Shown here piece after piece: positions 4,784 through 22,317 of a stretch of 64,000 nucleotides of DNA. Below the pieces are notes generated by a model. It worked only from the letters and a program-made list of their open reading frames with translations, did no database searches and was not told the DNA's origin. Source of the stretch: an uncultured Actinomycetes bacterium (lineage in GTDB: Bacteria > Actinomycetota > Thermoleophilia > Gaiellales > Gaiellaceae). The translations under genes were made by a program, and so were the position numbers. The first letter of the stretch is position 1; every line of letters begins with the position of its first letter. Location of the stretch: positions 221,138 to 285,137 of the forward strand of contig CAVPRY010000006.1 in NCBI GenBank assembly GCA_963708005.1, in the 5' to 3' direction.

Positions 4784-4814
4784 CGAGGGTGGCTACACTA
4801 GGCGCGCGATGGCC

Positions 4815-4846: not shown

Positions 4847-5623
4847 ACTCGGACGGGGCCGACACCGCGGATCAAGCTTGTGACGGCTGCCCCGAGAGGC
4901 GGCCTCTCGGCCGCCGGTGACGGCCGTCGGCGCACCAAGACCGGCCCGCGCGGCCAGCAGGTGGTCGAGGCGCTGCGCAGCGCGATCGTCACAGGCCGGT
5001 TCGAGCCCGGCGAGCGCCTGATCGAGACGGCGCTCTCCGAAGAGCTCGGCACGAGCCGGGGCCCGGTGCGCGAGGCGCTCAGGCAGCTCGAGAACGAGGG
5101 TCTCGTGATGTCGTTCCCCTACCGCGGAGCCGTCGTGCTCGGCGTCTCCGACGAGGAGGTGCAGGAGGTACTGATCCCGATCCGCCTCACGCTCGAGCGC
5201 TACAGCTTCTCGCACGCGCTCGAACGCATGACCGACGCGGACTTCGCCGAGCTCGGCAAGCAGATCTGGGTGATGGAGCAGGCCGCGAAGGCGGAAGACC
5301 TGGACCGTATGGTGGAAGCCGACCTGCGCTTCCACGACATCGTCATCTCCAGCTCGGGCCAGCCGCACACGGTGCAGATCTGGCGCACGATCTGGCCGCG
5401 GATCCGCGGTTACTTCTTCCGCTACGGGCGGAGCCAGAGCCTGGAGACGATGGTCGACGAGCACCGCGAGCTCTTGGAGGCGCTGCAGACGCGGGACCCC
5501 GATGTCATGCTCCACCAGCTCGAGCTGCACATCGCGGTGCGACCGCCGGGGGCGCCAAAGACCCGGAAGGCGAAGAGCGATCGCGCCGCCCGGGCTGCCG
5601 GCGACCGCCAGGGACCCTGCTGA
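4835..5623 (+). CDS. GntR family regulator, FadR subfamily with FCD domain; true start may be the GTG at 4880
   Basis: [45 protein letters not shown] winged helix; ADLRFH and DEH...LELH FCD motifs. Confidence 0.92.
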
Positions 5624-5862
5624 CCGAGCTTCTTCGGGTCGAGAACCTCCGCACCTGGTTCTGCACGCGCAGCGGCGTCCTGCGCGCGGTGGACGGCGTC
5701 GACTTCGAGATCGGCCAGGGCGGCCGGCTCGGAGTCGTCGGCGAGTCGGGGAGCGGCAAGTCCGTCACCGCACTGTCCGTGATGCGCCTCGTCGACCCGC
5801 CGGGGCCGCGTCGAGTCGGAGTCCCGCATCGTGTTCGAGGGACGCGACCTCGCAACGCTCTG
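5620..5862 (+). pseudogene. 5' fragment of an OppD/DppD-type ABC ATPase
   Basis: [11 protein letters not shown]...[10 protein letters not shown]...GESGSGKS (Walker A)...[11 protein letters not shown], with a frameshift near 5803; ends abruptly with no ABC signature or Walker B. Confidence 0.8.
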
Positions 5863-6358
5863 CAGCCGCATCGCGCCGCCCTCGCGCGACTGGTTGAAAT
5901 AGCTGTTCGTCGGCACCACGTCGGGCCAGATCGCGGTCAGGTGGGGCGGCCGCTCGAGCGCCATCCGCACCTGCGTGATCGCCGCATACGAGCTTCCGAC
6001 CGTGCCGATGCGCCCGTTCGACCACCGCTGCGCCGCGATCCACTCCACCGTGTCGTAGCCGTCGCGGCCCTCGTGCGGCGTGACCGTGTGCGCGTAGTCA
6101 CCCGTGCCCTCGGAGCGGTACCGGTCGCGCAGGTCCTGGAAGCACCACGGCGTAGCCGTGAGGCACGAAGAAGTCCGCGATCTCGGTGTAGCGCCGGTCC
6201 GTCTTGTCGTACGGGGTGCGGCAGAGCACGGTCGGGAAGCTGCCGTCCGCGGGCTCCCCCTCCACCGCCGGCCGGTAGACGTCGGTCGCGAGCCTTGTCC
6301 CGTCGCGCATCGCGAGCATCACGTCCTTGGCGACGACGATCCCGTGCCCGGCGCTCAC
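5863..6358 (-). pseudogene. 5' portion of a CocE/NonD family serine hydrolase
   Basis: [14 protein letters not shown]...RTPYDK...[frameshift near 6139][11 protein letters not shown]...[28 protein letters not shown]; truncated after about 165 codons. Confidence 0.82.
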
Positions 6359-8487
6359 TAGCCCTCCCTCTCGACGATCAGGTTCCCCAACTCGTCGACA
6401 CGGACGGCGAAACCCGGATGGACGACGGTGGTGGAGTCGAACTCCTCGACGACGGCCGGTCCGGAGAACGCCGAGCCCGCCGCCAGCGCATAGCGGTCGT
6501 AGATCGGACACTCGACGTAGTCGCCCGCCTCGGCGAAGAACACGGCGCGCCGCTCCTTGGGCGCCACCCCGCCGCCCGGCTCCAGCCGTCGCGGCGGCGG
6601 CTTCGCGATCCGGCCGATGCTGGTGAGGCGGAGGCTCACGGCCTCCACGGGCTCGGCCGGGGCGCTGAACCCGTAGGTGCGGTCGTGCTCGGCGTGGAAG
6701 CGCTCGAGGAGGTCGTCGCCGGCGGGGACGGTGAGCTCGTAGCTCTGGCCCACGTAGCGCAGGTCGATCTGGCGGACGAACTCGATCGCCTCGCCTGCGA
6801 CGCCCTCGCGCTCCAGCTCCGACCGGCCCGCTTCCTCGAGCTGCGCGAAGGTCGTCTCCACCTCGGCGGCGTCGAGGGCGTCGAGACGGCGCATGATCGT
6901 CACCGCCGCGTCGCGCTTGAGGTCGGTGGCGAGCAACCCGGCGGCGGAGAAGATGCCCGGGCTGCGCGGGATCAACAGGGTCGGCATCTCGGCGTCGCGC
7001 GCCAGGGCGTTCGCGTGCACCGGCCCGGCACCACCGAAGCCGACGAGGACGAAGTCGCGCGGGTCGTAGCCCCGCTGCACCGAGATCAGGTGCAGCGCGT
7101 TGACCATCGCCGCGTTCGCGATCTCCACGATCCCGTTCGCGGCCTCGGTCGCGCTCAGCCCGAGCGGCGTCGCACAGCGCTCCTCGATCGCGCGCCGTGC
7201 GCCCTCCACGTCGAGCCCGATCTCGCCGCCGAGGAAGTAGACCGGGTTGAGGCGCCCGAGCACGACGTTGGCGTCCGTCACCGTCGGCTCGACGCCGCCG
7301 CGCCCGTAGCAGACGGGCCCGGGGTCGGCGCCGGCGCTCTGCGGGCCGACGCGCAGGAGCCCGCCCGAGTCGACCCAGGCGATGGAGCCGCCGCCGGCGC
7401 CGATCTCGACGAGGTCGACGACCGGCGTCCGCACCGGGTAGCCGGACAGGGACAGGCCGCCGATCCCGGCCCCTGCGTGGCCGCCGACGCTGTAGTCCTT
7501 GGTCACCGACGGGCGCCCGCCCTGGATCAGACCGACCTTCGCGGTCGTGCCGCCCATGTCGAAGGAGAGGATGTCGGGGAGGCCGAGGCTCTCCCCCAGG
7601 TGCGCCGAGGCGATCACGCCGGCGGCAGGTCCAGACTCCACCATGAACACGGGACGCCCCCGCGCCGCCTCGGAGCTGAACACGCCGCCGCTCGACTGCA
7701 TCACGAGCAGCTTCGCCCGCACGCCCGCGGCGGCGAGGCGGCGCTCGATCCGCTCGAGGTAGCGCTCCACGACCGGGCGGATGACTGCGTTGATCACGGT
7801 GGTGGAGGCGCGCAGGTACTCGCGAAACTCCGGCGCCACCTCCGCCGACAGCGAGACCGGGACGCCGGGTAGCTCCTCGGCCAGGATGGCGCCGACCCGC
7901 CGCTCGTGCTCGGGGTTGACGTAGGAGTGGAGCAGGCAGACGGCGACGGACTCGACCCCCTCGCGCCGCAGGATCGCTGCGGCGTCGCGCACGGAGTCGT
8001 CCTCGAGCGGGAGCAGCACCTCGCCGGCCGGCCCGAGGCGCTCGCGCACGCCGACGGCGCGGTCGCGCGGGACCAGCGGCTTCGGCTTCTCGAACTGCGT
8101 GTCGTAGAGCGTCGGCCGCACCTGGCGGGCGATCTCGAGCAGGTCGCGGAAGCCGTCGGTCGTGACGAAGCCGCTGCGCGCGATCTTGCCCTCGATGATC
8201 GCGTTCGTCGCCACCGTCGTCGCGTGCACGACGAAGCGCACCTGCTCCGCTTCCACGCCGCCCTCGGCCAACGCGCGCTCGACGGCCTGCATGAACCCCT
8301 CCGACGGGTCGGCGGGCGTCGTGAGCACCTTCGCGATCGCGACGGCGCCGGTCTCCTCGTCGATCAGAGTCGCGTCGGTGAACGTGCCGCCGATGTCGAT
8401 CGCCACCCGGACGCCGCTCCCCCGCTGCGGCGTCGGCAAAGCCGCCGCCTTCGCTCCCGGCGGCTCCGTCGAGCCTACGCCGCTCAT
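6358..8487 (-). CDS. Hydantoinase/oxoprolinase subunit A (HyuA-like)
   Basis: [35 protein letters not shown] and PTVTDAN motifs; 709 aa. Confidence 0.93.
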
Positions 8488-10190
8488 CCAGCACTCCGCA
8501 GCTCACTCGTCGCCGCCACGTCGACACGGCGGTCGGCCACGGCGACCCGGTAGATCGAGCGGGCCCGCTCGATGCTGACCTTGCCCTCGAGCACGTCGCG
8601 CAGGACGCGCGCCGGGTCGCGCTCGTCGGGCGGCCCGTAGCCGCCGCCGCCGCAGGTGCGGATGCTGATCACGTCGCCCGGGATCAGGTCGAGCGTGGTC
8701 TTCGAGCCGAGCCGCACCTCTACCCCGTCCCGGATGTGCACGTACTCGGCCACGCGTCCCTCGCCCCCGCCGAACACGCCCCACGGGCCGCTACGGTCGC
8801 GGTCGGCGAGGATGGTGAAGGTCGTGTGGAGGTCGAAGCGGTAGTCCTTGCGCAGCCCGAGCCCGCCGCGGAAGCGGCCCGGCCCCTCCGAGTCCTCGAC
8901 GAGCGCCAGGCCGTCGACGCGCAGCGGGTAGTTCAGCTCGGTCTCCTCGACCGGCGCGTTCTCGGTGTTCTGACCGTGCGTCTGGACGGCGTCCGGCCCG
9001 TCGCTCGCCGCGCGGCCGCCGTAGCCGCCGGCGAAGGTCTCGTAGAAGCACGTGTACGTCCCGGCGGCGAGGTCGAGGGAGCCGAAGCCCGCCTGGCACA
9101 TCATCGCCTTCGTGCCCGCGGGCAGCCGTTCGGGGAACGCGGGCAGCAGCGCGAGAAACATGACGTCGACGAGGCGCGTCTGCGTCTCCCAGCCGCCGAC
9201 GACGGGCGCCGGCCACAGGCAGTTCGTGACGGTGCCCGGCGGCGCGTCGACCGAGACGAGGCGGTAGAAGCCGGCGTTCACCGGCAGGTCCGGGTCGATC
9301 AGGCACTTGAGCACGTAGGCGCAGGCAGAGAACGTCTGCGCGAAGGTGGAGTTGACCGGAGCACGGCGCTGCGGATCCGACCCCGTCGTGTCGAAGCGCA
9401 CGCCGCCGGCGGAGATCTCGATCCGCGCGCGCAGGCGCACCGGCTCGTCGGTGTACCCGTCGTTGTCGACGAAGCCCTCGGCCTCGTAGACGCCGTGCGG
9501 CAGGGCCTCGAGCTCGGCCCGCGTGCGCCGTTCCGTGTACTCCAGCAGCTCCCGCATCGTGGCTACGATCGTGTCGAGCCCGTGGCGGGCGACGAGCGCC
9601 TGCACGCGACGCACGCCCGTGGCGTTGGCCGCCACCTGCGCGCGGAAGTCGCCGGCCGTCTCGACCTTCGAGCGGATCTGGGCGAGGATCAGCTGGAAGA
9701 CGTCCTCCACGATCCGGCCGCCCTCGACGAGCCTGACCGGCGGGATGATCACGCCTTCCTGGAACACTTCGCGGAACGCCCCGATGCTCGCCGGCGCGCC
9801 GCCGCCGACGTCGACATGGTGGGCGAGGTTCGCCACATAGCCCAGCAGCCGCCCCTCGTGGTGGACCGGCGAGATCAGGCTGACGTCGTTCAGGTGGACG
9901 CCGCTCGGGTGCGGGTCGTTGGTCACGATCGCGTCTCCGGGGCAGAGATTCTCCGGGCCGTACGCGCGCACCGCCTTGGGCACCTGCTCCACCATCGAGC
10001 CGAGGTGCACCGGCTGCGAGAAGCCCTGTGCGATCGACTGCAGCTCGGCATCGAAGAAGGCGCACGAGAAGTCGGAGCGCGTCTTGATGTTCGTGGAGTA
10101 GGCGCTTCGCTTGAGCGCCAGCACCATCTCGTCCGTCGCCGCCACGAGCGCGTTGCGGATCACTTCGAACGTGATCGGGTCGATCGTCAT
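8484..10190 (-). CDS. Hydantoinase B/oxoprolinase subunit (HyuB-like)
   Basis: DPITFEVIRN, HLG, NDPHPSGVHLND, HHVDVGG, GPGRFRGGLG and CGGGGYG motifs. Confidence 0.93.
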   Translation of the reverse strand: MTIDPITFEVIRNALVAATDEMVLALKRSAYSTNIKTRSDFSCAFFDAELQSIAQGFSQPVHLGSMVEQVPKAVRAYGPENLCPGDAIVTNDPHPSGVHLNDVSLISPVHHEGRLLGYVANLAHHVDVGGGAPASIGAFREVFQEGVIIPPVRLVEGGRIVEDVFQLILAQIRSKVETAGDFRAQVAANATGVRRVQALVARHGLDTIVATMRELLEYTERRTRAELEALPHGVYEAEGFVDNDGYTDEPVRLRARIEISAGGVRFDTTGSDPQRRAPVNSTFAQTFSACAYVLKCLIDPDLPVNAGFYRLVSVDAPPGTVTNCLWPAPVVGGWETQTRLVDVMFLALLPAFPERLPAGTKAMMCQAGFGSLDLAAGTYTCFYETFAGGYGGRAASDGPDAVQTHGQNTENAPVEETELNYPLRVDGLALVEDSEGPGRFRGGLGLRKDYRFDLHTTFTILADRDRSGPWGVFGGGEGRVAEYVHIRDGVEVRLGSKTTLDLIPGDVISIRTCGGGGYGPPDERDPARVLRDVLEGKVSIERARSIYRVAVADRRVDVAATSELRSAG

Positions 10191-10350
10191 CTACGGAGCT
10201 CCGCCGTCGCAGCCTCGTCGAGGCGGCGGTCGGCCACGGCGATCCTGTAGATCGAGCGGGCCCGCTCGATGCTGACCTTGCCCTCCAGGACGTCGCGCAG
10301 GACGCGGGGGACGGGTCCCTGCTCTCGGGCGCCGTAGCCGCCGCCGCGGC
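10187..10350 (-). pseudogene. 3' remnant of a second hyuB-like gene; imperfect direct repeat of about 8500-8650
   Basis: GGGYG...RVLRDVLEGKVSIERARSIYRIAVADRR is nearly identical to the HyuB C-terminus; its TGA overlaps the hyuB ATG. Confidence 0.8.
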
Positions 10351-10413
10351 GGCGAGCGGCTTTGCCGGACATGCTCGCTACGGCCTCTTCCTGGTCGCCG
10401 GAAGGGAGACCCG

Positions 10414-11043
10414 TCAGGCTACCCGGCGGTCGGGGAGCCGCTTCCGCGGCGCTCCGATGTCGTCCCGCTGCTCGTACTGCACGGGGGCGTCTGTGCCGAT
10501 GACCGGAGACCTCGGCAAGGAGTCAGGCCTCGTCTGGCGGAGCTCCGGGTACAGCAGCCGCGCCGCGAGGCTCCCACCCTCGACGTCCCTCAGCGGGAAG
10601 CCCGCCGGGTTCCCGACGGCGATGGGCGCCTCCCGGCCGAGCCTTGCCAGCGTCAGCGTGCCCCGCGTGTAGACCTCGCCGATCCGCGGCGCCTGGACCG
10701 TGGCGCTCTCGGGAAAGTTCCTGAAGCCTGCGGCGGCGGCGCCGGCGTACAGGCCGTCGACGAGGCCGACGGCGTCCATCATGCCGGCCTTCTTCACGAG
10801 TAGGCCCTCGAGCAGGTCGACGCCGGCATCGAGTTGCTCGTTGATCGCCGTGACAACGCCGTTGACCGGCGCGCTCTTCTCGACGATCCCGCTTACGTGG
10901 ACGATCACCTCGTCCAGGCCGCCCGTGATCTTTCGAAGCTGCACGATCACCGAGACGAGGTAGAAGACGAGCGCAACGACGATCAGCACGACGGCCAGGA
11001 TCGTGACCACGCCCGCCGCCGCGACTGCCAACACAGGTGTCAT
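10414..11043 (-). CDS. Hypothetical single-pass membrane protein with helical segment and C-terminal extension (gene 5 of 5)
   Basis: ATG at 11043 in an ATGA overlap; N-terminal hydrophobic run, amphipathic helix containing AINEQ; 209 aa. Confidence 0.8.
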   Translation of the reverse strand: MTPVLAVAAAGVVTILAVVLIVVALVFYLVSVIVQLRKITGGLDEVIVHVSGIVEKSAPVNGVVTAINEQLDAGVDLLEGLLVKKAGMMDAVGLVDGLYAGAAAAGFRNFPESATVQAPRIGEVYTRGTLTLARLGREAPIAVGNPAGFPLRDVEGGSLAARLLYPELRQTRPDSLPRSPVIGTDAPVQYEQRDDIGAPRKRLPDRRVA

Positions 11044-11312
11044 CGTTCCCCCTGGCGAGCGTCGTCGAGGATCATGTCGAGCGAGCCGCCGTAGTTCGCG
11101 ACTCCGGCAACGGTCTGGGTCACCTGGTCCTGCGTCGTCAGCAGCAGCGCGGCGGCGTCGAGGTCCTTCGAGCCTGCGGCCGCCACCGTTGCGATCTCCT
11201 TCACGCTCGGGACGATGCTTTGGGCCGCCTTCAGGACGCCGTGGAGCAGGTACACGACGACCGGGACGACCACCAGCAGCAGGACGAGGTCTCCGATCCA
11301 CCAGAGGATCAT
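11040..11312 (-). CDS. Small single-pass membrane protein (gene 4 of 5)
   Basis: MILWWIGDLVLLLVVVPVVVYLLHGVL followed by a helical tail; ATGA overlaps at both ends; 90 aa. Confidence 0.8.
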   Translation of the reverse strand: MILWWIGDLVLLLVVVPVVVYLLHGVLKAAQSIVPSVKEIATVAAAGSKDLDAAALLLTTQDQVTQTVAGVANYGGSLDMILDDARQGER

Positions 11313-11587
11313 CGCGGCCTCCGCTCGGCAACGATCGCCGCCTTGCGGGCGATCCCCGGCAGGGCGCCGAGGATGATGTCGAACTGCTCGTTGATCGCCT
11401 TCACGGCGCCCTCCAGCGGACGCAGGTGCTGCGACTCGACCCCCTGCAGCGCGGATGCCAGCGTCGCGAGCCCCTCGGAGATCCTCGTCAATCCCCTGCG
11501 CACCTCGATCAGAGCGACGGCCAGCACGAGCACGACGCCCGCCGCCAGCACGACGCTCAGAAGGACCAGGACGTCGGTGCTGCTCAT
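11309..11587 (-). CDS. Small single-pass membrane protein (gene 3 of 5)
   Basis: MSSTDVLVLLSVVLAAGVVLVLAVALI followed by a helix containing AINEQ; ATGA overlaps; 92 aa. Confidence 0.8.
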   Translation of the reverse strand: MSSTDVLVLLSVVLAAGVVLVLAVALIEVRRGLTRISEGLATLASALQGVESQHLRPLEGAVKAINEQFDIILGALPGIARKAAIVAERRPR

Positions 11588-11883
11588 GCCGCATCACCGA
11601 ATCCGTCGGTAAGCGCGTTCATGTAACCGTCCTGTACCACCGCTTCGTCCACGATCAGCGCCAGCACGGGCGCCGTCGCCTCGAGCTGCGGGATGTTCGC
11701 CGTGTTCGCGGCAACCTGGCCCGCGATCTCCAGCAAGCCGTCGACCGATTTCTCGATGCTCCTGACCGCCTGCAGGAGCACGGCCAGCAGGATGGCGACG
11801 ATCACCGCCGCACCGAGAGCGATGCTCAGGGCGATCACCCAATAGTCGTTGAAGGACAGCGCGGCGAGGAGGAAGGCTGTCAT
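11584..11883 (-). CDS. Small single-pass membrane protein (gene 2 of 5)
   Basis: WVIALSIALGAAVIVAILLAVLL followed by a helical tail; ATGA overlaps; 99 aa. Confidence 0.8.
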   Translation of the reverse strand: MTAFLLAALSFNDYWVIALSIALGAAVIVAILLAVLLQAVRSIEKSVDGLLEIAGQVAANTANIPQLEATAPVLALIVDEAVVQDGYMNALTDGFGDAA

Positions 11884-12143
11884 TTTCCGACCGCCACCTT
11901 TCGCAGTGACCGGGCAGCGTGCAGGATCCTCACCCCCGAGTCGTTGATCCGCGCGATGCCGCCGAGCTCGGCTGTCTGCTGGCGCACCATGTCGACCGCC
12001 TGCTCCGCCGTCCTGGCCTGCTTGGCGATCCGGATCGCGAGCACGTCGATCACGATCACGATCACCGCAGCCACCGCGATCACCACGATGCCCAGCCCGA
12101 TCCCGACCTGCCAGGCGGTGGCCGATCCCGTCAACATGGGCAC
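11880..12143 (-). CDS. Small single-pass membrane protein (gene 1 of 5); alternative ATG at 12137
   Basis: WQVGIGLGIVVIAVAAVIVIVI followed by a helical tail containing ARINDS. Confidence 0.78.
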   Translation of the reverse strand: MPMLTGSATAWQVGIGLGIVVIAVAAVIVIVIDVLAIRIAKQARTAEQAVDMVRQQTAELGGIARINDSGVRILHAARSLRKVAVGK

Positions 12144-12511
12144 GCGACACCGTGAGATTGTCGAGCCGGGGAGGGAATAGCCCGGCTGGTCATCTGGTGC
12201 CCTCCTGTCCCTGTGGCCTTGACCTCAGCATCCATAGCTCGTTCGGCGATGACAGCAGGATCCGCAGCGCCGAGCACAGACTGAGCCGGTCTCGCTCCGT
12301 CGGGCCGACCCTAACACCGAGGGCAACGCAGTCCAAGTCGTTCCGGCACTGGACGAGAGCGGGCCAACGAGAGAAGCCGGCTCGGGTCTGACGCCACTCT
12401 GGATGGGCGTCCTTGTGGAGCGGAGTCGCGCAGGAGTCGAACGGGCCGAGCCGTTGGTCAGGCGACGTCGGCGACGGCCCGATGTTCGCCCGAGTTCGTA
12501 GGATCGGTTCG

Positions 12512-12977
12512 GTGGCGCCTGGGGAGGTCAAGTTGGCTTTTGCGCAGGCTGCGGCCGACGACGGGATCGTGCTCGGAAGTCAATCGTTCGACTGGCTGTG
12601 CGAGCAGGGCCACGTCGGACTCGAGCGCGTGGCGAAGGCCCGGCGCGACTCGGCGCTCGTCGGGCCGCTGACGTCCGCGCTCGAGCTCTCGGCGCGATCC
12701 ATGCTCGCCTCAGGGGCGATCTCTCGGTCCTATACGCGTCGCGCGAGAACGTCGCGCTTGGTGCTCGAGAACCGATGGCCTCGTACGCGGCCTCCCGGCA
12801 AAGGGGTTCGGATTCGGGGGCGTGCAGCGCGAGCGGGCGCACCACGATGCGCTGCGTGACCTCGCCACTCCGGCCATGGGCCACCCGCCGCTCGTTCGGA
12901 TCGCGGCCGTCGACGGCGATGGGGCGGCCGCCTACCGGCGCCACCGGGCGTCACTGCTGGTGCTTCTGGGCTCCTGA
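12512..12977 (+). pseudogene. Degraded hypothetical gene on the strand opposite the cox accessory genes
   Basis: TAGGAT shortly before a GTG; protein-like pieces in shifting frames (AFAQAAADDGIVLGSQSFDWLCEQGH; HARLRGDL; HDALRDLATPAMGHPPLVRIAAVDGDG). Confidence 0.4.
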
Positions 12978-12978
12978 C

Positions 12979-13233
12979 TCAGCGAGCGGGCGCTTCGTAG
13001 CCGTCGATCACGGACACGTTGACCGTCGAGCACCGTCCGCAGCGGACGCGGACCTTTCTTGTCATCTGCACCGGGTGCATCGCCGTGGCCAGGACGTTGC
13101 CGCACTGGACGCAGACGTAGTCGTCCGGGCCGTTGCCATGGAAGACGGGCCTGTCGGCGTCTTCCTGGATTGCGGTCCCGCCGTCGAATGGCACTTCTCC
13201 TTCGCGTATCCGACGCATCGTGATGGTCGCCAT
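12979..13233 (-). CDS. Small zinc-ribbon-like protein
   Basis: CVQC...CGRC cysteine pairs; starts 11 bp after the coxG stop; 84 aa. Confidence 0.7.
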   Translation of the reverse strand: MATITMRRIREGEVPFDGGTAIQEDADRPVFHGNGPDDYVCVQCGNVLATAMHPVQMTRKVRVRCGRCSTVNVSVIDGYEAPAR

Positions 13234-13244
13234 GACTTGCCGGA

Positions 13245-13676
13245 TCAGATCTCGCCGAGCTTTCCGGCGAAGTCCTTGATCAGCGCGTCCAGCACGCCGA
13301 CGACGACTCCCTCGCCCATCGACGCAGCCTTGCCCGTGATCTGCGCATTGGTATGGATCGTCCCGCCGCCGTCCGCGAGCGCGAATGCGACGGTGGCGTT
13401 CGCGTGTCCCTGACCGCCGGCCTCCTTGGACTTGACGCTCATGACCACGCGATAGGCGGCCGCGTCCTGCTCGACGATCTCCACGGTGCCAGTGAAGGTC
13501 ATCGACATCGCTCCCATCTTGACCTTGATCTCGGCCCTGACGGAGTCGGGCCCGGTCGACTCGAGCACGCTGCCTCCCTCGACGCAGGGTACGACGCGCT
13601 CGAGGTCGAGGATCGCCGCGTAGCTCTCGTCGATCGGCTTGGCAGTGGAGAACGGATGATCAAGCTCTACGGCCAT
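13245..13676 (-). CDS. coxG: CoxG/SRPBCC family protein without a C-terminal membrane anchor
   Basis: ILDLERVVPCVEGG...IKVKMGAMSMTFTGTVEI...GQG.ANA...ITGKAASMGEGV; GAGGAGG RBS; ends at 143 aa. Confidence 0.8.
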   Translation of the reverse strand: MAVELDHPFSTAKPIDESYAAILDLERVVPCVEGGSVLESTGPDSVRAEIKVKMGAMSMTFTGTVEIVEQDAAAYRVVMSVKSKEAGGQGHANATVAFALADGGGTIHTNAQITGKAASMGEGVVVGVLDALIKDFAGKLGEI

Positions 13677-13809
13677 GGCGCCTCCTCAGCGAGGGGTGTG
13701 CGAGTGATCGCGGATCTCCTCACGTTTACTGATCAGACAGGATCGATGCATTCTATTGTCTTTCCTCGTCACCCAGATCAGGCGGAAATTCATCATCTAG
13801 GCTCCGCGC

Positions 13810-14592
13810 GTGGCGATCGAGCCAGGCACGCACAAGCTCGGGCCCGACCACTACACCCTCTCGGTGAGAACGACGCGCACCGGCGCCGCGGCCAAAGCCG
13901 GACACGACCTCCTGATCTACGTCACCGCCTGGCAGGCGACGCTCGAGGTCGGCGAGGATCCCGCGCTCACCAGCATCGCGCTCGACGCAGACGCCACCTC
14001 TCTTCGCGTGCGTGAGGGCACCGGGGGGATGCAGGCGCTCGGCGCCGACGACATGGAGAGCATCGAGCAGACGATCGACGACGAAGTCTTGAAGGGGGAG
14101 AGCATCGAGTTCCGCTCGACCTCGGTGCAGACCGCCGCCGACGGCAGCCGGATGAGCGTGCAGGGCGAGCTGACGCTCGTCGGCAAGACCTGCCCGATCG
14201 AAGTCGACGTCACGGTCGGCGCTGACGGCAAGCTCGGGGGCCGCGCCGTCGTCAAGCAGACCGACTGGGGAATCACGCCCTACTCGACGCTGTTCGGAGC
14301 CTTGAAGGTCGTCGACGAGGTCGAGGTCGTGATCGACGCCACCTCCGAGGCGGGCGAAGGACCCGAATCGGCCGACCCCGGCGACGCAGGATCGCCGCTG
14401 CACCGCCGCGCACCGAGCATCGGCCATGCCGTCTCGAGCTTCCTCTGGGCGCTCTTCTTCTTCCTCTTCCTCTGGTTCGGCATGGTCGCCGTCGATGTAT
14501 CCCACGGCACCGCGCTGCCCCTCGCCCTCGTGGCGGCGTTCCTCATCTTCCTGTTCGTCCACAGCCGGGGCGCGAACCGTCAGCAGATCTGA
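13810..14592 (+). CDS. YceI family polyisoprenoid-binding protein with linker and two C-terminal transmembrane helices
   Basis: TGAAAKAGHDL...VQGELTLVG...VKQTDWGITPYSTLFGALKVVDEVEV YceI-like barrel; acidic Pro/Gly linker; FLWALFFFLFLWFGMV and LALVAAFLIFLFV; no signal peptide; TAGGCT 6 nt before the GTG. Confidence 0.8.
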   Translation: MAIEPGTHKLGPDHYTLSVRTTRTGAAAKAGHDLLIYVTAWQATLEVGEDPALTSIALDADATSLRVREGTGGMQALGADDMESIEQTIDDEVLKGESIEFRSTSVQTAADGSRMSVQGELTLVGKTCPIEVDVTVGADGKLGGRAVVKQTDWGITPYSTLFGALKVVDEVEVVIDATSEAGEGPESADPGDAGSPLHRRAPSIGHAVSSFLWALFFFLFLWFGMVAVDVSHGTALPLALVAAFLIFLFVHSRGANRQQI

Positions 14593-14631: not shown

Positions 14632-15093
14632 TCAGCCGGTGTAGACGGTCTGTGCGTCGAGGCCGCCCTCGACGCCCGGCGGTAGTACGCCGGTGCCGTG
14701 CGCATAGAGAGCGATCTCCTCGATCGTCTTGACCTGCGTGGGGTCGCCTCCAGCCACCCTCACCCACGCCCCGTTCGACCACTCGAGGGTCTCGGGTGGG
14801 GTTTCGAGCGCCGCGCCCGCGAGCAGCTGCGCCTTGGCGCGAATCTTGTCGGCGGCGCTGACGATCGCCGCCGAGGTGCCCTCGGCTGGGCTGGTGTTGT
14901 AGCCGTGACCTACCCCGAAGCGGTCCGTGTCCGCTGGAACTACCTTGACGTCCAGCGCAGGGATACCGAGCTCGTCAGCCACGAGCTGAGCGTACTGGGC
15001 CTCCTTCCCGTCGGACTCGGTGGTCAAGCTGAGCACCATCTTGCCGGTCGGGTGGACGCGCAGAAAGACTGCTCGGTACGCCTCGTTGGCCAT
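14632..15093 (-). CDS. Stand-alone molybdopterin-binding-domain protein homologous to an internal CoxL segment
   Basis: Own AAGGAG RBS; LRVHPTGK...AQLVADELGIP...DTDR...EGGLDAQ aligns by eye with CoxL LRVHPSGK...AQIVAEELGIP...DTDR...EGGLDAQ; 153 aa. Confidence 0.8.
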   Translation of the reverse strand: MANEAYRAVFLRVHPTGKMVLSLTTESDGKEAQYAQLVADELGIPALDVKVVPADTDRFGVGHGYNTSPAEGTSAAIVSAADKIRAKAQLLAGAALETPPETLEWSNGAWVRVAGGDPTQVKTIEEIALYAHGTGVLPPGVEGGLDAQTVYTG

Positions 15094-15126: not shown

Positions 15127-15315
15127 TCATCGCTCGGCCCGGGCCGCGCCGCCGGGGCTCTCGTTTGCGAGGCGCTGGCGCTCCTGGTGGGCGGTTAGTG
15201 CGTTGTGCTCTTCCAAGTCGCAGAAAGACGGCTGCGGTCCGCCGAGCGGGTTCGGAAGCGCCGCGGGTCGCTCGCAGCCGGGGTAGATGCACGTCTTGGC
15301 GGCGGCCTCATTCAT
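15127..15315 (-). CDS. Small Cys/His protein
   Basis: Overlaps the coxE stop; CIYPGC...FCDLEEH; 62 aa. Confidence 0.6.
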   Translation of the reverse strand: MNEAAAKTCIYPGCERPAALPNPLGGPQPSFCDLEEHNALTAHQERQRLANESPGGAARAER

Positions 15316-16690
15316 CGGTCACCCACCCGGGAGTGGTGTTGCCCCTGCTCGGACCCTGCCCGCTGGGCATGGCGACCGAGCTGCCCGGGAGCGGGGTCGC
15401 GCTGGCCCACGGCTCTGGCTCGTCAGGAACGGCGGTCGGCGCCGGCGGCGGCCAGTAACCTGACGACTGCGCCGCGATGGCGTCAGCGACCTCACCGAGG
15501 GCCTCGAAGCTGTGGCCGCTCACGAGCGCGTCGCAGTGTGGCAGCGCCGCCACCATGCCGCCGGCCTGTACCGAGAACGCGCTGGCTCCGACACGAGGGT
15601 TGACCCAGACGATCCGGTGTGCGAGGCGCGCCAATCGAGCCATCTCCCGCCCCACGAGCATCGGGTCGCCGCGCTCCCAGCCGTCGGAGAGGATCACGAT
15701 CACGGCGCCGCGGGCCATCCCGCGACGTCCGTGCCGGTCGTTGAACTCCTTCAGCGCGTCGCCGATCCGGGTTCCGCTCGACCAATCGGGCGCGGCGGCT
15801 GCCGCGCGCTGGATCGCGCGCTCCGGGTTGCGAGAAGCCAGCGCGCGGGTGAGGCGGGTCAGCCGCGTGGCGAACACGAACGCCTCGGCGTTCCGACCGC
15901 TGCCGGCGGCACAGGTCAGGAACTGCAGGTAGGCGCGCGCGTAGGGCTCCATCGAGCCAGAGATGTCGCACAGCAGCACGAGTCTCCGGCGGGCGATGCG
16001 TCGGCGTCGACGTGCGAGTCGGATCGGATCGCCCGCCGTGCGCAGGCTGGTACGGAGGGTCCGCCGCATGTCGATCCGCGCTCCGCGGCTTCCTTTCTCG
16101 TAGCGGCGCGTTTGCCGAAGCGGGGTTGCGAGCTCCAGGCGCGACATCAGCCGGTAGAGCTGTGCGAGCTCGTGCGGCTCGAGTGCGTCGAAGCTCTTGC
16201 GTCCCAGCAGCTCCTCGTCGCTCGCCATCGCCAACGGCACCTCGACCTCGGCAGGATCCTCGTCGTCGCCGCGCTCGCCGGCCGGTGGCGACGACACGCT
16301 CGTACTCGGGGCTTCTTCATCCGAGTCCCGGGACGAGGCCCGGTGCTCGGACTTCGGCCGGTCGTCCGGCGGCGCGGCGACGGTCCGCGGGTCAACGGGG
16401 GCGAAGTCCTCGCCTTGCGTTCGACCGCCGAAGACCGCGAAGAACACCTCGTCGAAAGCCTTGACCTGTGCCGGATCGGACACGAATACCGCACGGGCGG
16501 TCCAGTACAGCCGTCGGCGCGTGATCGGCCGGACCAGCGTGAGCGCCCGTGCGAAGTCGGCCGATCGTCCGGGCGTGATCGGCAAGCCGTCATCGTGCAG
16601 GCGCCGACTCAGTGCCCCGACCAGCGACGGCAGGTCGAGGTGGATCGTCTCGACCCCGAACACCCCGTTGGACATAGCCACGTCAGTCAC
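15308..16690 (-). CDS. coxE: CoxE VWA-domain accessory protein
   Basis: IDMRRTLR, DISGSM (MIDAS), FATRLTRLT, WSSGTRIG, SDGWERG and WVNP motifs. Confidence 0.92.
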   Translation of the reverse strand: MTDVAMSNGVFGVETIHLDLPSLVGALSRRLHDDGLPITPGRSADFARALTLVRPITRRRLYWTARAVFVSDPAQVKAFDEVFFAVFGGRTQGEDFAPVDPRTVAAPPDDRPKSEHRASSRDSDEEAPSTSVSSPPAGERGDDEDPAEVEVPLAMASDEELLGRKSFDALEPHELAQLYRLMSRLELATPLRQTRRYEKGSRGARIDMRRTLRTSLRTAGDPIRLARRRRRIARRRLVLLCDISGSMEPYARAYLQFLTCAAGSGRNAEAFVFATRLTRLTRALASRNPERAIQRAAAAAPDWSSGTRIGDALKEFNDRHGRRGMARGAVIVILSDGWERGDPMLVGREMARLARLAHRIVWVNPRVGASAFSVQAGGMVAALPHCDALVSGHSFEALGEVADAIAAQSSGYWPPPAPTAVPDEPEPWASATPLPGSSVAMPSGQGPSRGNTTPGWVTDE

Positions 16691-17606
16691 CGTCTCGCAC
16701 GAGCCGCTCGAGGCCGGCTGCGCGGACGACCTCCTGGTCCTCGCTGTACTTCAGCACCGACCCGAGGGTGCGGTCCACGGCCGCGGCGTCCAGGTGCTCG
16801 ATGCCGAGCAGATTCAGAGCTGCAAGCCAGTCGATCGCCTCGGCCACCCCCGGCGGCTTCTGCACGTCGCTGTCGCGCAGGCGCGAGACGGCGTTTGCGA
16901 CCTGTACCGCCAGCGTCTCCGACGAGCCCTTGACCCGGCGCCGCACGATCTCCACCTCGCGCTGTGGGGTCGGGTACGCGATCCAGTGGTAGAGGCAGCG
17001 GCGCTTGACCGCGTCGTGCAGGTCGCGCGTCCGGTTGGAGGTGAGCACGATGATCGGCGGATGCGTGGCTCGGATCGTGCCGAGCTCGGGGATCGTCACG
17101 CTCGCGTCCGCGAGCAGCTCGAGCAGGAACGCTTCGAAGTCGTCGTCGGCCCGGTCGATCTCGTCGATCAGCAGCACCGCTGGCCGGGGACCCGGGTGCT
17201 CGAGCGCGCGCAGGAGCGGGCGACGGATGAGATAGTCGGGGCCGAACAGCTCCTCCTCGCCGAGGGTCGTGTCGCGGGAGTCGGCGAGGCGGATGCTCAG
17301 CAGCTGGCGCGGGTAGTTCCACTCGTACAGCGCCTCCGCCGCGTCGATCCCCTCGTAGCACTGCAGGCGGATCAGCGGCGTGTCGAGCACGACCGCCAAC
17401 GACTTTGCGGCCTCCGTCTTGCCGACACCCGCCTCGCCCTCGAGCAGCAAGGGCTGCGGCAGGCCTACGCTCAGGAACATCGACGTCGCCAGCCCTTCGT
17501 CGACGAGGTAGTCGACGTCGGCGAGACGCCGGGCGAGGGTCTCGATGTCGGGCACGAGCCGGCGGATCTCGCCGGCCGCCTCGCCCGTGACCTCGCCCGG
17601 GGCCAT
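16683..17606 (-). CDS. coxD: CoxD MoxR-family AAA+ ATPase
   Basis: GEAGVGKT, RLQCYEG, YEWNY, LLIDEIDR and LTSNRTRDLHDAVKRRC motifs. Confidence 0.92.
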   Translation of the reverse strand: MAPGEVTGEAAGEIRRLVPDIETLARRLADVDYLVDEGLATSMFLSVGLPQPLLLEGEAGVGKTEAAKSLAVVLDTPLIRLQCYEGIDAAEALYEWNYPRQLLSIRLADSRDTTLGEEELFGPDYLIRRPLLRALEHPGPRPAVLLIDEIDRADDDFEAFLLELLADASVTIPELGTIRATHPPIIVLTSNRTRDLHDAVKRRCLYHWIAYPTPQREVEIVRRRVKGSSETLAVQVANAVSRLRDSDVQKPPGVAEAIDWLAALNLLGIEHLDAAAVDRTLGSVLKYSEDQEVVRAAGLERLVRDGD

Positions 17607-18575
17607 CACTCCTCCGCGAGTGCGGGCACGTGCTCTGCCTGGAACTTTGCCGCGCAGCCCTCGCAGCAGAAGTACACCGTCTCGCCGTCGTACTCCACCG
17701 AAGGTGTGCTCGCGAGGGCAGCGACCGTCATCCCGCAGATCGGGTCGACCGCGAGCGGCGGTGGGCTGGAGGACGGGTTCGGTGGAGCCGGGAGGCGCGC
17801 GTCGTCGGATACCGCGGCGCGTTCTCCGCGTCGCACGGCAACGATCGTCGCGAGGATCGACAGCGCGATCTCGGCGGGGGTGCGGGCGCCGATGTCGATT
17901 CCGGCGGGCACGTCGATCTGCTCGAGGTGCTCCTCGGAGACCCCGTCGGCGCGCAGCTCGGCGATCACTCCGGCGCCGCGCTTGCGGCTGGCCACGAGGC
18001 CGATGTACGGCACGCCCGCCTCGAGCCCGCGCCGCAGCGTGTGCAGCTCGTCTCGCCCGTGCGCCGCGACGACGAGCGCGAGATCGCCGGGCGTCGGCTC
18101 CGGAGCACCTCCGTCGACGGGGACGAGATCGAGCCCGAGCTCCGCGCCGACCGACAGCACTGCGGCCGCGATCGGTGTGTCGCCCACGACCAGGACACGC
18201 GGCGTCGGGAGCACCGGCTCGAGGAAGATCTCGATCGCGCCCCCGGACAGGCACGGGTTCTGGGCCGTCACGGCTCCCTCCTCGACCGGGACCTCCCGAC
18301 CGGTTTCGCGGGTCTTCGCCGACGGCTCCGTCGGGAACGATTCGCAACAGGACCGCCTCCTCGGTCTCGATCGCCTTCAGCGAATACGCACGAACGCTTT
18401 GCTGCGCACACACCCCGCCGACGAACCCCTCGATCGTTCCGTCGCCGAGCACGAGCGCGACCTCTCCCGCCTTGACGCTCGTCGGGCGCTGTGCCCGCAC
18501 GACCGTGGCGATCACGAACGCCGTGCCCTCAGCTGCGAGCTCCCTGGCTCGCTGCGAGACGGCGTCGGTCATCAT
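17606..18575 (-). CDS. XdhC/CoxF-CoxI family Moco chaperone with C-terminal YHS domain (one frameshift near 18300)
   Basis: ATVVRAQRPTS...GFVGGVCA / NPCLSGG...YIGLVASRKR...PAGIDIGARTPAEIALSILA...DPICGM...YFCCEGCAAKF. Confidence 0.88.
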
Positions 18576-20957
18576 TGCGGCGGCTCGGGGCGCCCCTGCA
18601 TCGCCGCCCAGACACGGGCCGGAGTGCAGGGCATGTCGATGTGGTCGACGCCGTGCGTCTCGTGCAGCGCGTCGATGATCGCGTTCACGATCGCGGGCGG
18701 CGACCCGACGTTCGGCGACTCGCCCACGCCCTTGGCCCCGAGCGGATGGTGCGGGCACGGCGTGACCGTCTCGCCGAGCTCGAAGTCGGGGCATTCGAGC
18801 GCGGTCGGGATGAGGTAGTCCATGAACGACGAGTTGAGGCAGTTGCCCTCCTCGTCGAACGTGATCACCTCCATCAGCGCGATGCCGATGCCCTCGGCGA
18901 GTCCGCCGTGGATCTGGCCGTCGACGATCATCGGGTTGATGCGCACGCCGCAGTCGTCGACAGCGATGAAGCGCCTGACCGTGACCTGGGCGGTGTCGGG
19001 GTCGATGTCGACGACGGCGATGTAGGCGCCGTAGGGGTAGGTGAGGTTGGGCGGGTCGTAGATCACCTGCGCGTCGAGCCCGCCCTCCATCCCGTCAGGC
19101 ATCGGCTCGCCGCTGTAGGCCCGCACCGCGATCTCCTCGATCATCGCGCCCTTCTCGGGGTCTCCCTTGACGTACCAGCGACCCTTCTCCCAGGCGAGGT
19201 CCTCCGGCCTGGTCTCGAGCATCGTCGCCGCGATCAGACGCGCCTTGTCGCGCACCTTGCGCGAGACCACCGCGACCGCGGCGCCGGACACCGGCGTCGA
19301 GCGGCTGCCGTAGGTGCCGAGCCCGTACGGCGAGCGGTCCGTGTCGCCGTGGCGGACCTCGACGTCCTCGGGCGGGATGCCGAGCTCCTCGGCGACGATC
19401 TGCGCGAACGTCGTCTCGTGGCCCTGCCCCTGCGTCTGGGCGCTGATGCTGACCACCGCCTTGCCCGACGGGTGCACCCGCAGGTCGGCACCGTCGTTCA
19501 TCGCCAGCCCGAGGATGTCCATGTGCTTGCGCGGCCCCGCCCCCACACCTTCCGTGAAGAACGACACTCCGATGCCCATCAGCTCGCCGCGAGCGCGCTT
19601 CTCCGCCTGCTCGCGGCGCAGATCCTCGTACCCGGCGATCTCCATCGCCACGCGCATCGTCTCGGCGTAGTTCCCGGAGTCATACGTCCAGCCGGTGGTG
19701 GTCTCGTACGGGAACTGCTCGGGAGCGATGAAGCTGCGCATCCGCAGCTCGATCGGGTCGACCTTCAGCTCGAGCGCGAGCGCGTCGACCATCCTCTCCA
19801 CGAGGTAGACGGCCTCGGTGATGCGGAACGAGCAGCGGTACGCCACACCCCCCGGCGCCTTGTTCGTGTAGACCGCCTTGACCTTGACGTGCGACGCCTC
19901 GAGGTCGTACGAGCCGCAGACGATGTGGAAGAACCCGGCCGGGAACTTCGTCGGCTGCGCGGTCGCAGTCGAAGGCGCCGTGGTCGGCGATCACGTCGAC
20001 CCGCAGACCGGTGATCTTGCCGTTCTTCGCGCACATCTCGCTGCGCATCACGTAGTCGCGGGCGAATCCCGTGGACATCAGGTTCTCGGAGCGGTTCTCC
20101 ACCCACTTGACCGGTACGCCGGCCACGATCGAACCGGCGATCGCGCACACGTAGCCCGGATAGACCGGAACCTTGTTGCCGAAGCCGCCGCCGATGTCCG
20201 AGCAGCGGATCCGGATCATGTGCTCTGCGAGCCCCGCGACGTGCGCGTACACCGTGCGGTGAGCGTGCGGCGCCTGGTTGCCGTTGTAGATGTCGAGCTG
20301 GCCGGTCTCCGGATTGAAGTCGGCGATGATGCCGCACGTCTCGAGCGGCGCCGGATGACAGCGGGGATAGATGATGTCGCGCGACACGACGGTGTCGGCC
20401 TCGGCGAACGCACGGTCCGTCGCCGCCTGATCGCCGGCCTCCCAGGTCGGGCTCGCGAGGTTGTCGCGCTGCCCCGCCTTGTCGTCCCGGATCAGGGGGG
20501 CGTCGGGGTCCAGCGCCTTACGGGCGTTGACGATCGCCGGCAACGGCTCGTACTCGACGTCGATCAGCTGCAGCGCGTCGTTCGCCGAGTACTCGTCGGT
20601 CGCGATCACGAATGCGACCTCCTGCCCCTGGAAACGGACCTTGTCGCCGGCGAGCACGGCCTGCGTGTCGTAGGAGATCGTCGGCATCCACGCCAGCCCG
20701 AGCGTCTCGAGGTCCTTGGCGGTGACGACCGCGGCGACGTTGGGGTGCGCGAGCGCCCGGGAGGTGTCGATCGAGACGATGCGCGCGTGCGCGTACGGGC
20801 TGCGCAGGATGGCCCCGTGGACCATGCCCGGCAGCCGGATGTCGTCGAGGTAGGTTCCCTGGCCGCGGATGAAGCGCGCGTCCTCCTTGCGCTTCAGACG
20901 ACCGAACCCGATCGGGCGCTCGGTCGTGGCGCTGGGCAGGTTCTCGACGGTGGCCAT
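18572..20957 (-). CDS. coxL: Aerobic carbon monoxide dehydrogenase large subunit, form I (one extra base near 19966)
   Basis: RKEDARFIRG, GGGFGNK, active-site AYRCSFR (form I AYXCSFR), QGQGHET and GAKGVGES; the span is 3n+1, consistent with one indel. Confidence 0.95.
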
Positions 20958-20959: not shown

Positions 20960-21439
20960 TCAGACCTCCTGTTTCGCGGCGGCTTCGTACTCGGCGGCCC
21001 AGCGCACGGCACTGACGATGTTCTTGTACCCCGTACAGCGGCAGATCGCTCCTGAAATTGCTGTACGGATCTCCTCGTCGGTCGGATTCGGGTTCTCGTC
21101 CAGCAGGGCGCGAGCGGTCATCAACATCCCCGGTGTGCAGAATCCACACTGGAGAGCGTGCCGCTCGTGGAAGCCCATCTGAACCGGGTCGAGCCGGCCG
21201 TCGACCTCGAGCGACTCGACAGTGCGGATCTCGTGGCCCTCGCACATCACGGCCAGGATCGTGCAGGACTTGACCGGCTCGCCGTCCATCAGCACCACGC
21301 AGGCACCGCAGTTGGAGGTATCGCAACCCCAATGGGTGCCGGTCAGGCCGGGTGTCTCGCGGATGAAGTGGACGAGCAGCTGACGCGGTTCGATCTCGCG
21401 GGAGACCTGCTCGCCGTTGATCGGAATCGAGACGTTCAT
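20960..21439 (-). CDS. coxS: CO dehydrogenase small (2Fe-2S) subunit
   Basis: GCDTSNCGAC, KSC, QCGFCTPG and CRCTGY motifs. Confidence 0.95.
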   Translation of the reverse strand: MNVSIPINGEQVSREIEPRQLLVHFIRETPGLTGTHWGCDTSNCGACVVLMDGEPVKSCTILAVMCEGHEIRTVESLEVDGRLDPVQMGFHERHALQCGFCTPGMLMTARALLDENPNPTDEEIRTAISGAICRCTGYKNIVSAVRWAAEYEAAAKQEV

Positions 21440-21441: not shown

Positions 21442-22317
21442 TCAGGCCTCCTGGGGCAGCGCGCGTGCCGCGGCGCGGATCAGGGCGCGTGTCGTGAGGA
21501 CGCCGGCGAGGTGGCGCTTGTAGTCGATCGGCCCTCGACCGTCCGCGCTCGGAGAACAGTCCGCCGAGGCGATCTCGCCCGCCTGTGCAAACAGCTCAGC
21601 GGACGGAACCTTGCCCCGCAGCAGCTCCTCGGCTCGCGTGAGATGGATCGTCGTGAGCCCGACCGCGCTGAGCGCGATGCCCGCATCGGCGATCTTGCCG
21701 CCGTCGAGCCAGAGGGCGGCCGACGCGGCGGCGATCGCCCAGTCGCCGGCGCGGCGCTCGACCTTCTCGTGCGCGCTGCCGCCGCCCGGACGGAGCGGGA
21801 CTCGAACTTCGGTGAGCAGCTCGCCTTCGCCCACCGCGGTCCTGTACGGCCCAAGATGAAAGTCCTCCATCCCGACCACCCGCTCACCTCCGACGCCGCG
21901 GATCACGGCCTTCGCCTTGACCGCCGCGCAGACGGCCGAGAGATCCTCGGCCGCGTCCGCCTGGCACAGCGAGCCGCCGATCGTGCCGCGGTTGCGGACG
22001 ACCGGATCGGCGATCACCCGCTCCGCGTCTCGAAACAGCGGCAGGCGCTCGGCGAGCAGCTCGGACTTCAACAGATCGACGTGGCGGGTCAGCGCCCCGA
22101 TCAAGACCTCGTCGCCCTGCTCGCGGATGTAGGAGAGCTCCGTGAGATCGTTGATGTCGATCAGGTGCTCCGGGTTCGCAAGCCGGAGCTTCATCATCGG
22201 CAGCAGGCTGTGCCCGCCGGCAATGATGCGCGCCTCCGAGCCGAGCCTCTGAAGCGATGCGATCGCTCCGTCCACGCTCGTAGCACGCTCGTACGCAAAC
22301 GCCGCAGGGGTCTGCAC
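21442..22317 (-). CDS. coxM: CO dehydrogenase medium (FAD) subunit
   Basis: GTG after AAGGAG; AGGHSLLPMMKLR, RNRGTIGGSL and YKRHLA motifs; M-S-L gene order. Confidence 0.93.
   Translation of the reverse strand: MQTPAAFAYERATSVDGAIASLQRLGSEARIIAGGHSLLPMMKLRLANPEHLIDINDLTELSYIREQGDEVLIGALTRHVDLLKSELLAERLPLFRDAERVIADPVVRNRGTIGGSLCQADAAEDLSAVCAAVKAKAVIRGVGGERVVGMEDFHLGPYRTAVGEGELLTEVRVPLRPGGGSAHEKVERRAGDWAIAAASAALWLDGGKIADAGIALSAVGLTTIHLTRAEELLRGKVPSAELFAQAGEIASADCSPSADGRGPIDYKRHLAGVLTTRALIRAAARALPQEA

What the first reader, a model, noticed from the sequence alone, without database searches (positions are those of the whole stretch)
10414..12143. Five coupled paralogous single-pass membrane proteins trailing a form I CO dehydrogenase cluster: candidate membrane stalk or quinone conduit
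Seen: five consecutive ORFs (about 85, 99, 92, 90 and 209 aa) joined by four ATGA overlaps. Each has one N-terminal hydrophobic helix followed by about 50-60 residues of amphipathic helix; genes 3 and 5 share AINEQ and gene 1 has RINDS at a similar position. They lie on the cox strand about 0.8 kb beyond coxG and its partner. Known: these are not among the described cox accessory genes. As I recall, group 1l [NiFe]-hydrogenase loci carry about five short transmembrane genes (HylTM), and the Huc hydrogenase uses a helical HucM stalk to carry menaquinone. Inference: the five form an equimolar hetero-oligomeric helical bundle linking soluble CODH to the membrane quinone pool, with the tail of protein 5 as the docking arm.
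Basis: partly seen in the sequence, partly recalled or inferred. Interest (0 to 1): 0.88.

Follow-up and report, generated by a model that had tools for sequence, protein, structure and literature searches.

The report
Hydrogenase-type membrane stalk on CO dehydrogenase
Five small membrane-protein genes that travel with the carbon-monoxide-oxidising enzyme of many soil bacteria are relatives of five proteins so far described only beside air-hydrogen-scavenging enzymes, and they likely form a five-helix stalk that would tie the soluble enzyme to the membrane and feed it quinone.

Summary
The five ORFs and four ATGA overlaps are real and under purifying selection. 'Trailing' is peculiar to this window: in 80 of 80 related loci the set leads the operon, directly before coxM. 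Profile comparisons place the five, position by position, in the HylTM1-5 family of group 1l hydrogenases, as two subgroups (1/2/4 and 3/5). They show no similarity to HucM. Covariation across 113 complete sets runs in parallel register between chains, supporting a hetero-pentameric bundle. CoxG of this clade has no membrane anchor (62 of 63), whereas cassette-less clusters with coxG encode an anchored one (16 of 16). Protein 5 carries a CODH-specific 120-residue tail, its most constrained part. Best reading: a membrane-anchored helical tube that docks CODH/CoxG and likely supplies menaquinone. Not shown: a channel, or any contact with Cox subunits (complex prediction unavailable; covariation uninformative). 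A second CODH clade keeps both cassette and anchored CoxG. I found no paper linking HylTM to CODH. This scan reported the same link earlier on other genomes; new here are the covariation, CoxG-anchor and tail results.

The parts
11880..12137 (-). ORF1, 85 aa, single TM + amphipathic helix; matches the first TM gene after hylS (HylTM1 position)
   Evidence: (hhalign 97%)
11584..11883 (-). ORF2, 99 aa; HylTM2 position
   Evidence: (98%)
11309..11587 (-). ORF3, 92 aa; HylTM3/5 subgroup
   Evidence: 89% to position 3, 95% to position 5
11040..11312 (-). ORF4, 90 aa; HylTM4 position
   Evidence: (98%)
10414..11043 (-). ORF5, 209 aa; residues 1-88 HylTM3/5 subgroup, residues 89-209 a tail found only in this CODH clade
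12131..12193 (-). 20-codon leader ORF with a ribosome-binding site, overlapping the ORF1 start
   Evidence: sequence; similar leader in 3 of 10 relatives printed
12979..13233 (-). 84-aa Zn-ribbon-like protein conserved after coxG
   Evidence: below cut-off; 61 of 80 loci
13245..13676 (-). coxG, 143 aa, without C-terminal membrane anchor
   Evidence: clade profile vs PDB 8UDS, E 2.4e-29
13810..14592 (+). YceI-domain protein with a hydrophobic C-terminal part, divergent from coxG
   Evidence: PF04264 over cut-off
14632..15093 (-). stand-alone paralogue of a CoxL Mo-domain segment (48% to CoxL)
   Evidence: 62 of 80 loci
15127..15315 (-). 62-aa Cys/His small protein
   Evidence: 63 of 80 loci
15308..16690 (-). 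coxE (VWA)
16683..17609 (-). coxD (AAA+)
17606..18575 (-). coxF/xdhC-YHS, split over two frames near 18300 (start approximate)
18572..20957 (-). form I coxL (AYRCSFR), split over two frames near 19965-19990
20960..21439 (-). coxS
21442..22317 (-). coxM
10187..10372 (-). remnant duplicating the 3' end of the neighbouring hydantoinase B gene (86% over 163 nt); marks the rearrangement junction after ORF5

Best explanation
The five genes encode a HylTM1-5-type set that belongs to one clade of form I CO dehydrogenase clusters, and the five proteins likely assemble as a parallel five-helix tube anchored in the membrane, which would hold CODH and its anchorless CoxG near the membrane and likely pass menaquinone to them. 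Shown: real conserved genes; homology to the five TM genes between hylS and hylL; tight linkage to cox; anchorless CoxG; a CODH-specific conserved tail on protein 5. Computed: N-out/C-in topology, about 55-60 cytoplasmic helical residues per chain (roughly 8-9 nm by helix geometry), and in-register covariation between chains, strongest for 1-2, 2-3, 3-4, 4-5. Inferred: one copy of each chain (helped by translational coupling); a hydrophobic lumen; the protein-5 tail as an extended arm binding CoxM/CoxL or CoxG; quinone entering from the membrane and reaching the CoxM FAD directly or through CoxG. Step odds: heteromeric bundle 0.85, physical partner of CODH/CoxG 0.8, conduit rather than tether 0.55-0.6.
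For: Linkage: ORF5 followed by coxM in 80 of 80 loci (the best 80 of 165 confirmed), within 120 nt in 64 of 68 measured. In 251 class genomes, 24 of 25 with a strong ORF3 match have form I coxL within about 10 kb on the same contig, and the 25th is a deleted cluster remnant. Homology: 38 of 39 selected hydrogenase loci hold exactly five TM ORFs before hylL, and the profile matrix is diagonal. Hyl-built HMMs rank these five genes first among 38,668 six-frame segments of the genome (E 5.6e-9, 9.8e-10, 0.014, 1.4e-7, 1.9e-8; best unrelated 0.14). Bundle: 60% of the top 30 inter-chain couplings lie within 6 residues of equal height (background 15%); 0 of 20 re-paired shuffles and 0 of 2000 height permutations reach it; post-TM only 75% vs 20%. 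An AlphaFold3 model of HylTM1-5 as tubes is published (PMC13554262, section read). CoxG is 143-148 aa in 62 of 63, against anchored forms in 3 of 3 and 13 of 13 cassette-less loci with coxG. Tail pN/pS is 0.22 vs 0.34-0.48 elsewhere; it is unstructured alone in AlphaFold2, absent from hydrogenase-linked copies and cut short in an orphan copy.
Against: No experiment and no model shows a lumen or a contact with Cox proteins. A second form I clade (3 loci) has the cassette and also a CoxG with an amphipathic C-terminal helix, so the cassette is not simply a replacement for that anchor. The anchorless-CoxG contrast rests on one CoxL clade, so it is one event. Most form I clusters lack the set: 14 of 36 in the class, 0 of 20 sampled elsewhere. 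One genome has two copies with no enzyme genes within 9 kb, and some hydrogenase loci carry only three or four of the genes together. In this window the set is cut off from coxM. Covariation depth is low (effective 50 sequences) and the TM-end anchors were set by me.
Confidence: 0.5

Rival explanations
1. The five form a solid helical post that only tethers CODH and/or the anchorless CoxG to the membrane; CoxG still extracts menaquinone from the bilayer and shuttles it, as described for M. smegmatis.
For: coxG is kept in 63 of 80 loci, essentially all that reach far enough, and remains close to 8UDS. Chains 3 and 5 have Leu/Ile/Val-rich cores, compatible with tight packing. The ORF5 tail could replace the CoxG linker.
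Against: Five distinct, separately conserved chains are more than a tether needs. No CoxG is described for the group 1l clusters that carry the same set. Chains 1 and 4 have Ala-rich cores (34-37%), which would leave room.
Confidence: 0.3
2. The set is an assembly or organising scaffold: a site for cofactor insertion by CoxD/E/F, or a spacer that groups the enzyme with respiratory complexes. It would not carry electrons or quinone.
For: Copies also sit among hydrogenase maturation genes away from hylSL (L131, L192, L196). The cox clade carries extra possible maturation factors (CoxL-fragment gene, two small Cys proteins).
Against: Ni-Fe and Mo-Cu maturation machineries are unrelated (established knowledge), whereas both enzymes share the need to reach membrane quinone. 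The set lies between the structural genes hylS and hylL, or directly before coxM.
Confidence: 0.12
3. A co-regulated membrane or stress complex (DUF948-like layout) that travels with trace-gas operons but does not touch the enzyme.
For: Orphan copies in G023; weak sub-threshold DUF948 hits for the longer paralogues; one source names an ORF5 relative 'YoxC'.
Against: Coupling to coxM within tens of bases, a tail confined to cox-linked copies, and joint decay with cox in G061.
Confidence: 0.08

Closest known systems
HylTM1-5 of group 1l [NiFe]-hydrogenase clusters (10.1101/2020.08.06.239558, passages read; PMC9561532, passages; PMC13554262, one section read)
   Same: Five short single-TM proteins in the same order, with profile homology position by position (89-98%) and a shared covariation pattern.
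   Different: Here the partner is a Mo-Cu CODH, identity is only about 20-30%, and protein 5 has a 120-residue tail with no similarity to the HylS C-terminal extension. HylTM function is itself only predicted.
HucM stalk of M. smegmatis Huc (PMC10017518, passages read; PDB 7UUS)
   Same: Proposed working principle: an amphipathic helical tube linking a soluble trace-gas enzyme to membrane menaquinone over about 9 nm.
   Different: HucM is a homotetramer of 188 aa attached peripherally by its C-terminus; these are five different N-anchored TM proteins. No sequence similarity (probability at most 0.26%).
CoxG menaquinone shuttle of M. smegmatis Mo-CODH (10.1101/2024.01.09.574806, passages and section 8 read; PDB 8UDS)
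   Same: The cluster encodes a CoxG domain serving the same enzyme.
   Different: The described CoxG has a linker and a C-terminal TM helix; this clade's CoxG has neither and comes with the five-gene set, which the passages I read do not mention.

Membership tests
HylTM1-5 | five short proteins, each with one predicted TM helix | tested here: met
HylTM1-5 | sequence homology to the TM genes between hylS and hylL | tested here: met
   positions 3 and 5 cannot be told apart by score alone
HylTM1-5 | encoded in a group 1l hydrogenase cluster | tested here: not met
   They lie in a cox cluster; the only hydrogenase large subunit found in the genome is of a different, sulfhydrogenase-like gene layout on another contig. 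So homologues, not HylTM in the strict sense.
HylTM1-5 | reference loci are truly group 1l (compared with the H. roseosalivarius type sequences) | tested here: inconclusive
HylTM1-5 | tube-like five-helix assembly (published AlphaFold3 model) | tested here: inconclusive
HucM (Huc membrane adapter) | sequence homology | tested here: not met
   also not among listed PDB hits
HucM (Huc membrane adapter) | menaquinone passage through a hydrophobic tube | not testable with these tools
   needs structure and lipid analysis
form I Mo-Cu CODH cluster | coxMSL order with AYXCSFR in CoxL, and coxD/E/F/G | tested here: met
   coxL and coxF are each split by a frameshift in this assembly
DUF948/YoxC, holins or any curated family | Pfam or NCBIfam score over cut-off | tested here: not met
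   Atlas clusters unnamed

The most novel reading that the evidence does not exclude
A plug-in hetero-pentameric quinone conduit is shared between two unrelated trace-gas enzymes, [NiFe]-hydrogenase and Mo-Cu CO dehydrogenase, and is fitted to each by a different C-terminal tail (on chain 5 in Thermoleophilia, on chain 3 in a second CODH clade). In this clade CoxG has lost its anchor and works at the mouth of the tube. This would be a further route, beside HucM and anchored CoxG, from soluble enzyme to the quinone pool.
Probability: 0.4. Interest if true: 0.85.

Novelty: new variant of a known kind. Interest (0 to 1): 0.68.

Why it matters
How soluble, high-affinity H2- and CO-oxidising enzymes hand electrons to membrane quinone has been solved for two M. 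smegmatis enzymes only. Thermoleophilia are common soil bacteria, and 22 of 36 sampled genomes with an intact form I CoxL carry this set. If it is a stalk or conduit, it gives a function to the untested HylTM proteins, names five of the most conserved unknown genes of these cox operons, and offers a small (about 565-residue) complex that can be expressed, purified and deleted.

Tried and rejected
Complex prediction (ORF5 tail with CoxM, CoxG and the CoxL-fragment protein) was not available, and fold search of the ORF5 model did not run, so neither gives a verdict. Covariation of the tail with CoxM/S/L/G/fragment showed no signal with 35 sets: uninformative. Tail homology to the HylS C-terminal extension was rejected. 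No clean natural fusion of two modules was found; all multi-module ORFs looked like frameshift read-throughs. Plasmid search with ORF5 gave no match. PDB searches gave only generic coiled coils. Number of recruitments: the ORF2 tree separates the two cox-linked groups, but a single cox clade is not rejected (p-AU 0.129; every fourth of loci L001-L080 used). Among 17 fetched hydrogenase loci of the class only one hit the profiles. Co-transcription was not shown: contigs of soil RNA libraries cover the five genes, some across gene junctions, but contigs show neither strand nor level. No contig bridges the junction after ORF5, so the window's permuted order may be real or an assembly effect. No sigma-70 promoter-like site was found in 10200-14000. 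My error: 13810-14592 was first read on the wrong strand (the 'yceI' labels have inverted sign); corrected. Two weak ORF3 matches (G116, G183) were dropped as likely chance without being fetched; two weak ORF1 matches (G422, G554) were dropped after inspection. Paper searches returned no title or read passage linking HylTM or a five-gene TM set to CODH. Subscription papers and bioRxiv supplements (such as the flanking-gene table of 10.1101/2020.08.06.239558) were not seen and could hold such a mention.

Full report
Observation. The five ORFs are at the stated place on the minus strand (85, 99, 92, 90, 209 aa), joined by four ATGA overlaps. Each has one N-terminal hydrophobic segment and GC3 of 0.85-0.91. 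None reaches a Pfam or NCBIfam cut-off, and the nearest Atlas clusters for ORF2 and ORF5 are unnamed. They are single-copy in the 4.24 Mb genome. pN/pS against 37-39 relatives is 0.34-0.48, and 0.22 for the ORF5 tail. Nearest named relatives are Gaiellaceae, class Thermoleophilia. The neighbouring cluster is coxM-S-L-F-D-E, a 62-aa Cys/His protein, a stand-alone CoxL-domain paralogue, an opposite-strand YceI gene, coxG and a Zn-ribbon gene. CoxL has the form I motif. coxL and coxF are each split by a frameshift. Another gene of the assembly is split likewise, and relatives in RNA-library contigs lack one base near 19964, so an assembly error is likely but not proven.

Context. Of 165 confirmed ORF5 relatives in species-representative genomes, the best 80 were fetched. 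In all 80, ORF5 is followed by coxM; ORF1-3 are seen in 77-78, and the misses reach a contig end. The gap to coxM is at most 120 nt in 64 of 68 measured. The window is therefore a circular permutation of the usual order, with a remnant of the hydantoinase B 3' end right after ORF5. No contig bridged that junction. In an even sample of 251 class genomes, 25 have a strong ORF3 match: 22 have an intact form I coxL within about 10 kb, two (including this one) a frameshifted one, and one a deleted remnant. Fourteen other form I genomes lack the set. One genome has two more copies without enzyme genes nearby. In 401 phylum genomes, 82 have form I coxL and 25 match the ORF1 profile; both tallies include unpublished G362, and the first also G333. 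Of the 24 other than this genome, 9 lie beside form I cox, 10 beside hylS and/or hylL, 1 beside hydrogenase maturation genes, 1 near RuBisCO genes, 2 are chance and 1 was not examined. Twenty further form I loci had no cassette even with deep profiles.

Family. Eighty metagenome loci of the related hydrogenase were fetched. Of 39 loci that I chose because they showed the interposed layout with enough sequence (38 of those plus one genome locus), 38 hold exactly five TM ORFs before hylL. This is the layout published as HylTM1-5. Profile-profile probabilities are 97% (ORF1 to position 1), 98% (2 to 2), 98% (4 to 4) and 89-96% (3 and 5 to positions 3 and 5). HMMs built only from hydrogenase loci rank the five cox genes first among 38,668 genome segments. 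Deep profiles relate all five to each other (38-99%) in two subgroups, 1/2/4 and 3/5. A HucM relative, verified against PDB 7UUS, shows no similarity. A second form I clade (three loci, CoxL 56-57% identical to this one) has the set in order 4-5-1-2-3 after coxG, with a tail on chain 3 instead of chain 5. Whether CODH recruited the set once or twice is unresolved.

Structure. AlphaFold2 gives ORF5 an unbroken helix over residues 2-86 (pLDDT mostly above 90), short helices to 134, and a low-confidence, largely non-helical tail. The post-TM helices have 41-46% conserved hydrophobic positions, a period of 3.4-3.6 and almost no aromatics. A multi-chain model could not be run, so I tested assembly by covariation on 113 complete five-gene sets (effective number 50). 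Top inter-chain couplings fall within six residues of equal height above the membrane in 60%, 52% and 38% of the top 30, 60 and 120, against 15% background. Twenty re-paired shuffles reached at most 30%. None of 2000 height permutations within TM and cytoplasmic parts reached the top-60 value, and the cytoplasmic part alone gave 75% against 20%. Excess in-register couplings were highest for pairs 1-2 (18), 2-3 (15), 3-4 (14), 4-5 and 3-5 (12 each), against about 5 expected, which suggests a ring in gene order; the closing pair 1-5 is weak (9). This supports a parallel hetero-oligomer, in line with the published AlphaFold3 tube model for HylTM. It says nothing about a lumen.

Link to the enzyme. 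In M. smegmatis, CoxG binds menaquinone, has a C-terminal TM anchor and is required for CO oxidation in cells. In cassette loci of this clade CoxG is 143-148 aa without anchor in 62 of 63 cases; the other is a distant second paralogue. Cassette-less loci with coxG encode a 180-304-aa form with a TM or amphipathic tail in 3 of 3 and 13 of 13 cases. Something else must therefore reach the membrane in this clade, and the five-gene set is the obvious candidate, though the YceI-TM protein is another. Against a simple swap, the second clade has both, and the contrast is one evolutionary event. The ORF5 tail fits an arm that folds on a partner, but covariation could not name one.

Verdict. The five are real, conserved, cox-linked homologues of HylTM1-5. 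They likely form a membrane-anchored pentameric stalk (0.85), and most likely serve as the quinone link for CODH and anchorless CoxG (0.5), with a pure tether as the main rival (0.3). My five paper searches found no statement of the CODH link. Earlier notes of this scan reached the same family assignment on other genomes; my reading was recorded before opening them, and they are not counted as support. Novelty: new variant of a known but untested kind. Interest 0.68.

Noticed in passing
window 14632-15093 (-): A stand-alone paralogue of a CoxL Mo-domain segment, with the GSRS stretch of CoxL replaced, in 62 of 80 cassette loci and none of 34 cassette-less or 3 second-clade loci; possibly a maturation decoy or adaptor.
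   Followed up: partly
window 13810-14592 (+): YceI-domain protein (a polyisoprenoid-binding fold, from recall) inside the cox cluster on the opposite strand, divergent from coxG; a second candidate quinone carrier.
   Followed up: partly
window 12979-13233 and 15127-15315 (-): Two small unnamed Cys-containing proteins conserved in 61 and 63 of 80 loci; possible metal carriers.
   Followed up: no
L085:5210-7610; L191:573-2512; L197:6759-8159; L199:11735-13281: Two or three longer TM-plus-helix proteins (about 180-270 aa, weak DUF948 hits) beside the five-gene set in both cox- and hydrogenase-linked loci; possibly a longer second stalk. In L085, ferritin-like and cupredoxin genes lie between the set and coxM.
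   Followed up: partly
L084:9760-10143: A truncated-globin gene directly upstream of an orphan, partly decayed cassette copy in G023.
   Followed up: no
window 13245-13676 (-): This clade's CoxG has GKAASMGEG (56 of 62) where other CoxGs have G-x-x-AQ[YF]G[RS]G; the acidic change may reflect docking on protein rather than lipid.
   Followed up: partly
L092 and L189: Tandem form I clusters in one stretch: a cassette-less cox set of another clade next to the cassette-bearing one.
   Followed up: no
L131:7017-11578 (G003, same genus): A group-1l-like hydrogenase with only four divergently transcribed TM genes heading the hyp operon.
   Followed up: partly
window 12131-12193 (-): A 20-codon leader ORF carries the ribosome-binding site and overlaps the ORF1 start; similar in L014, L021, L024.
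   Followed up: no
window 662-10190: Catabolic island next to the cluster: two enolase-superfamily-like genes, an aminotransferase-like gene, a GntR-like regulator (by inspection) and hydantoinase A/B (Pfam), with broken transporter- and acylase-like fragments.
   Followed up: no
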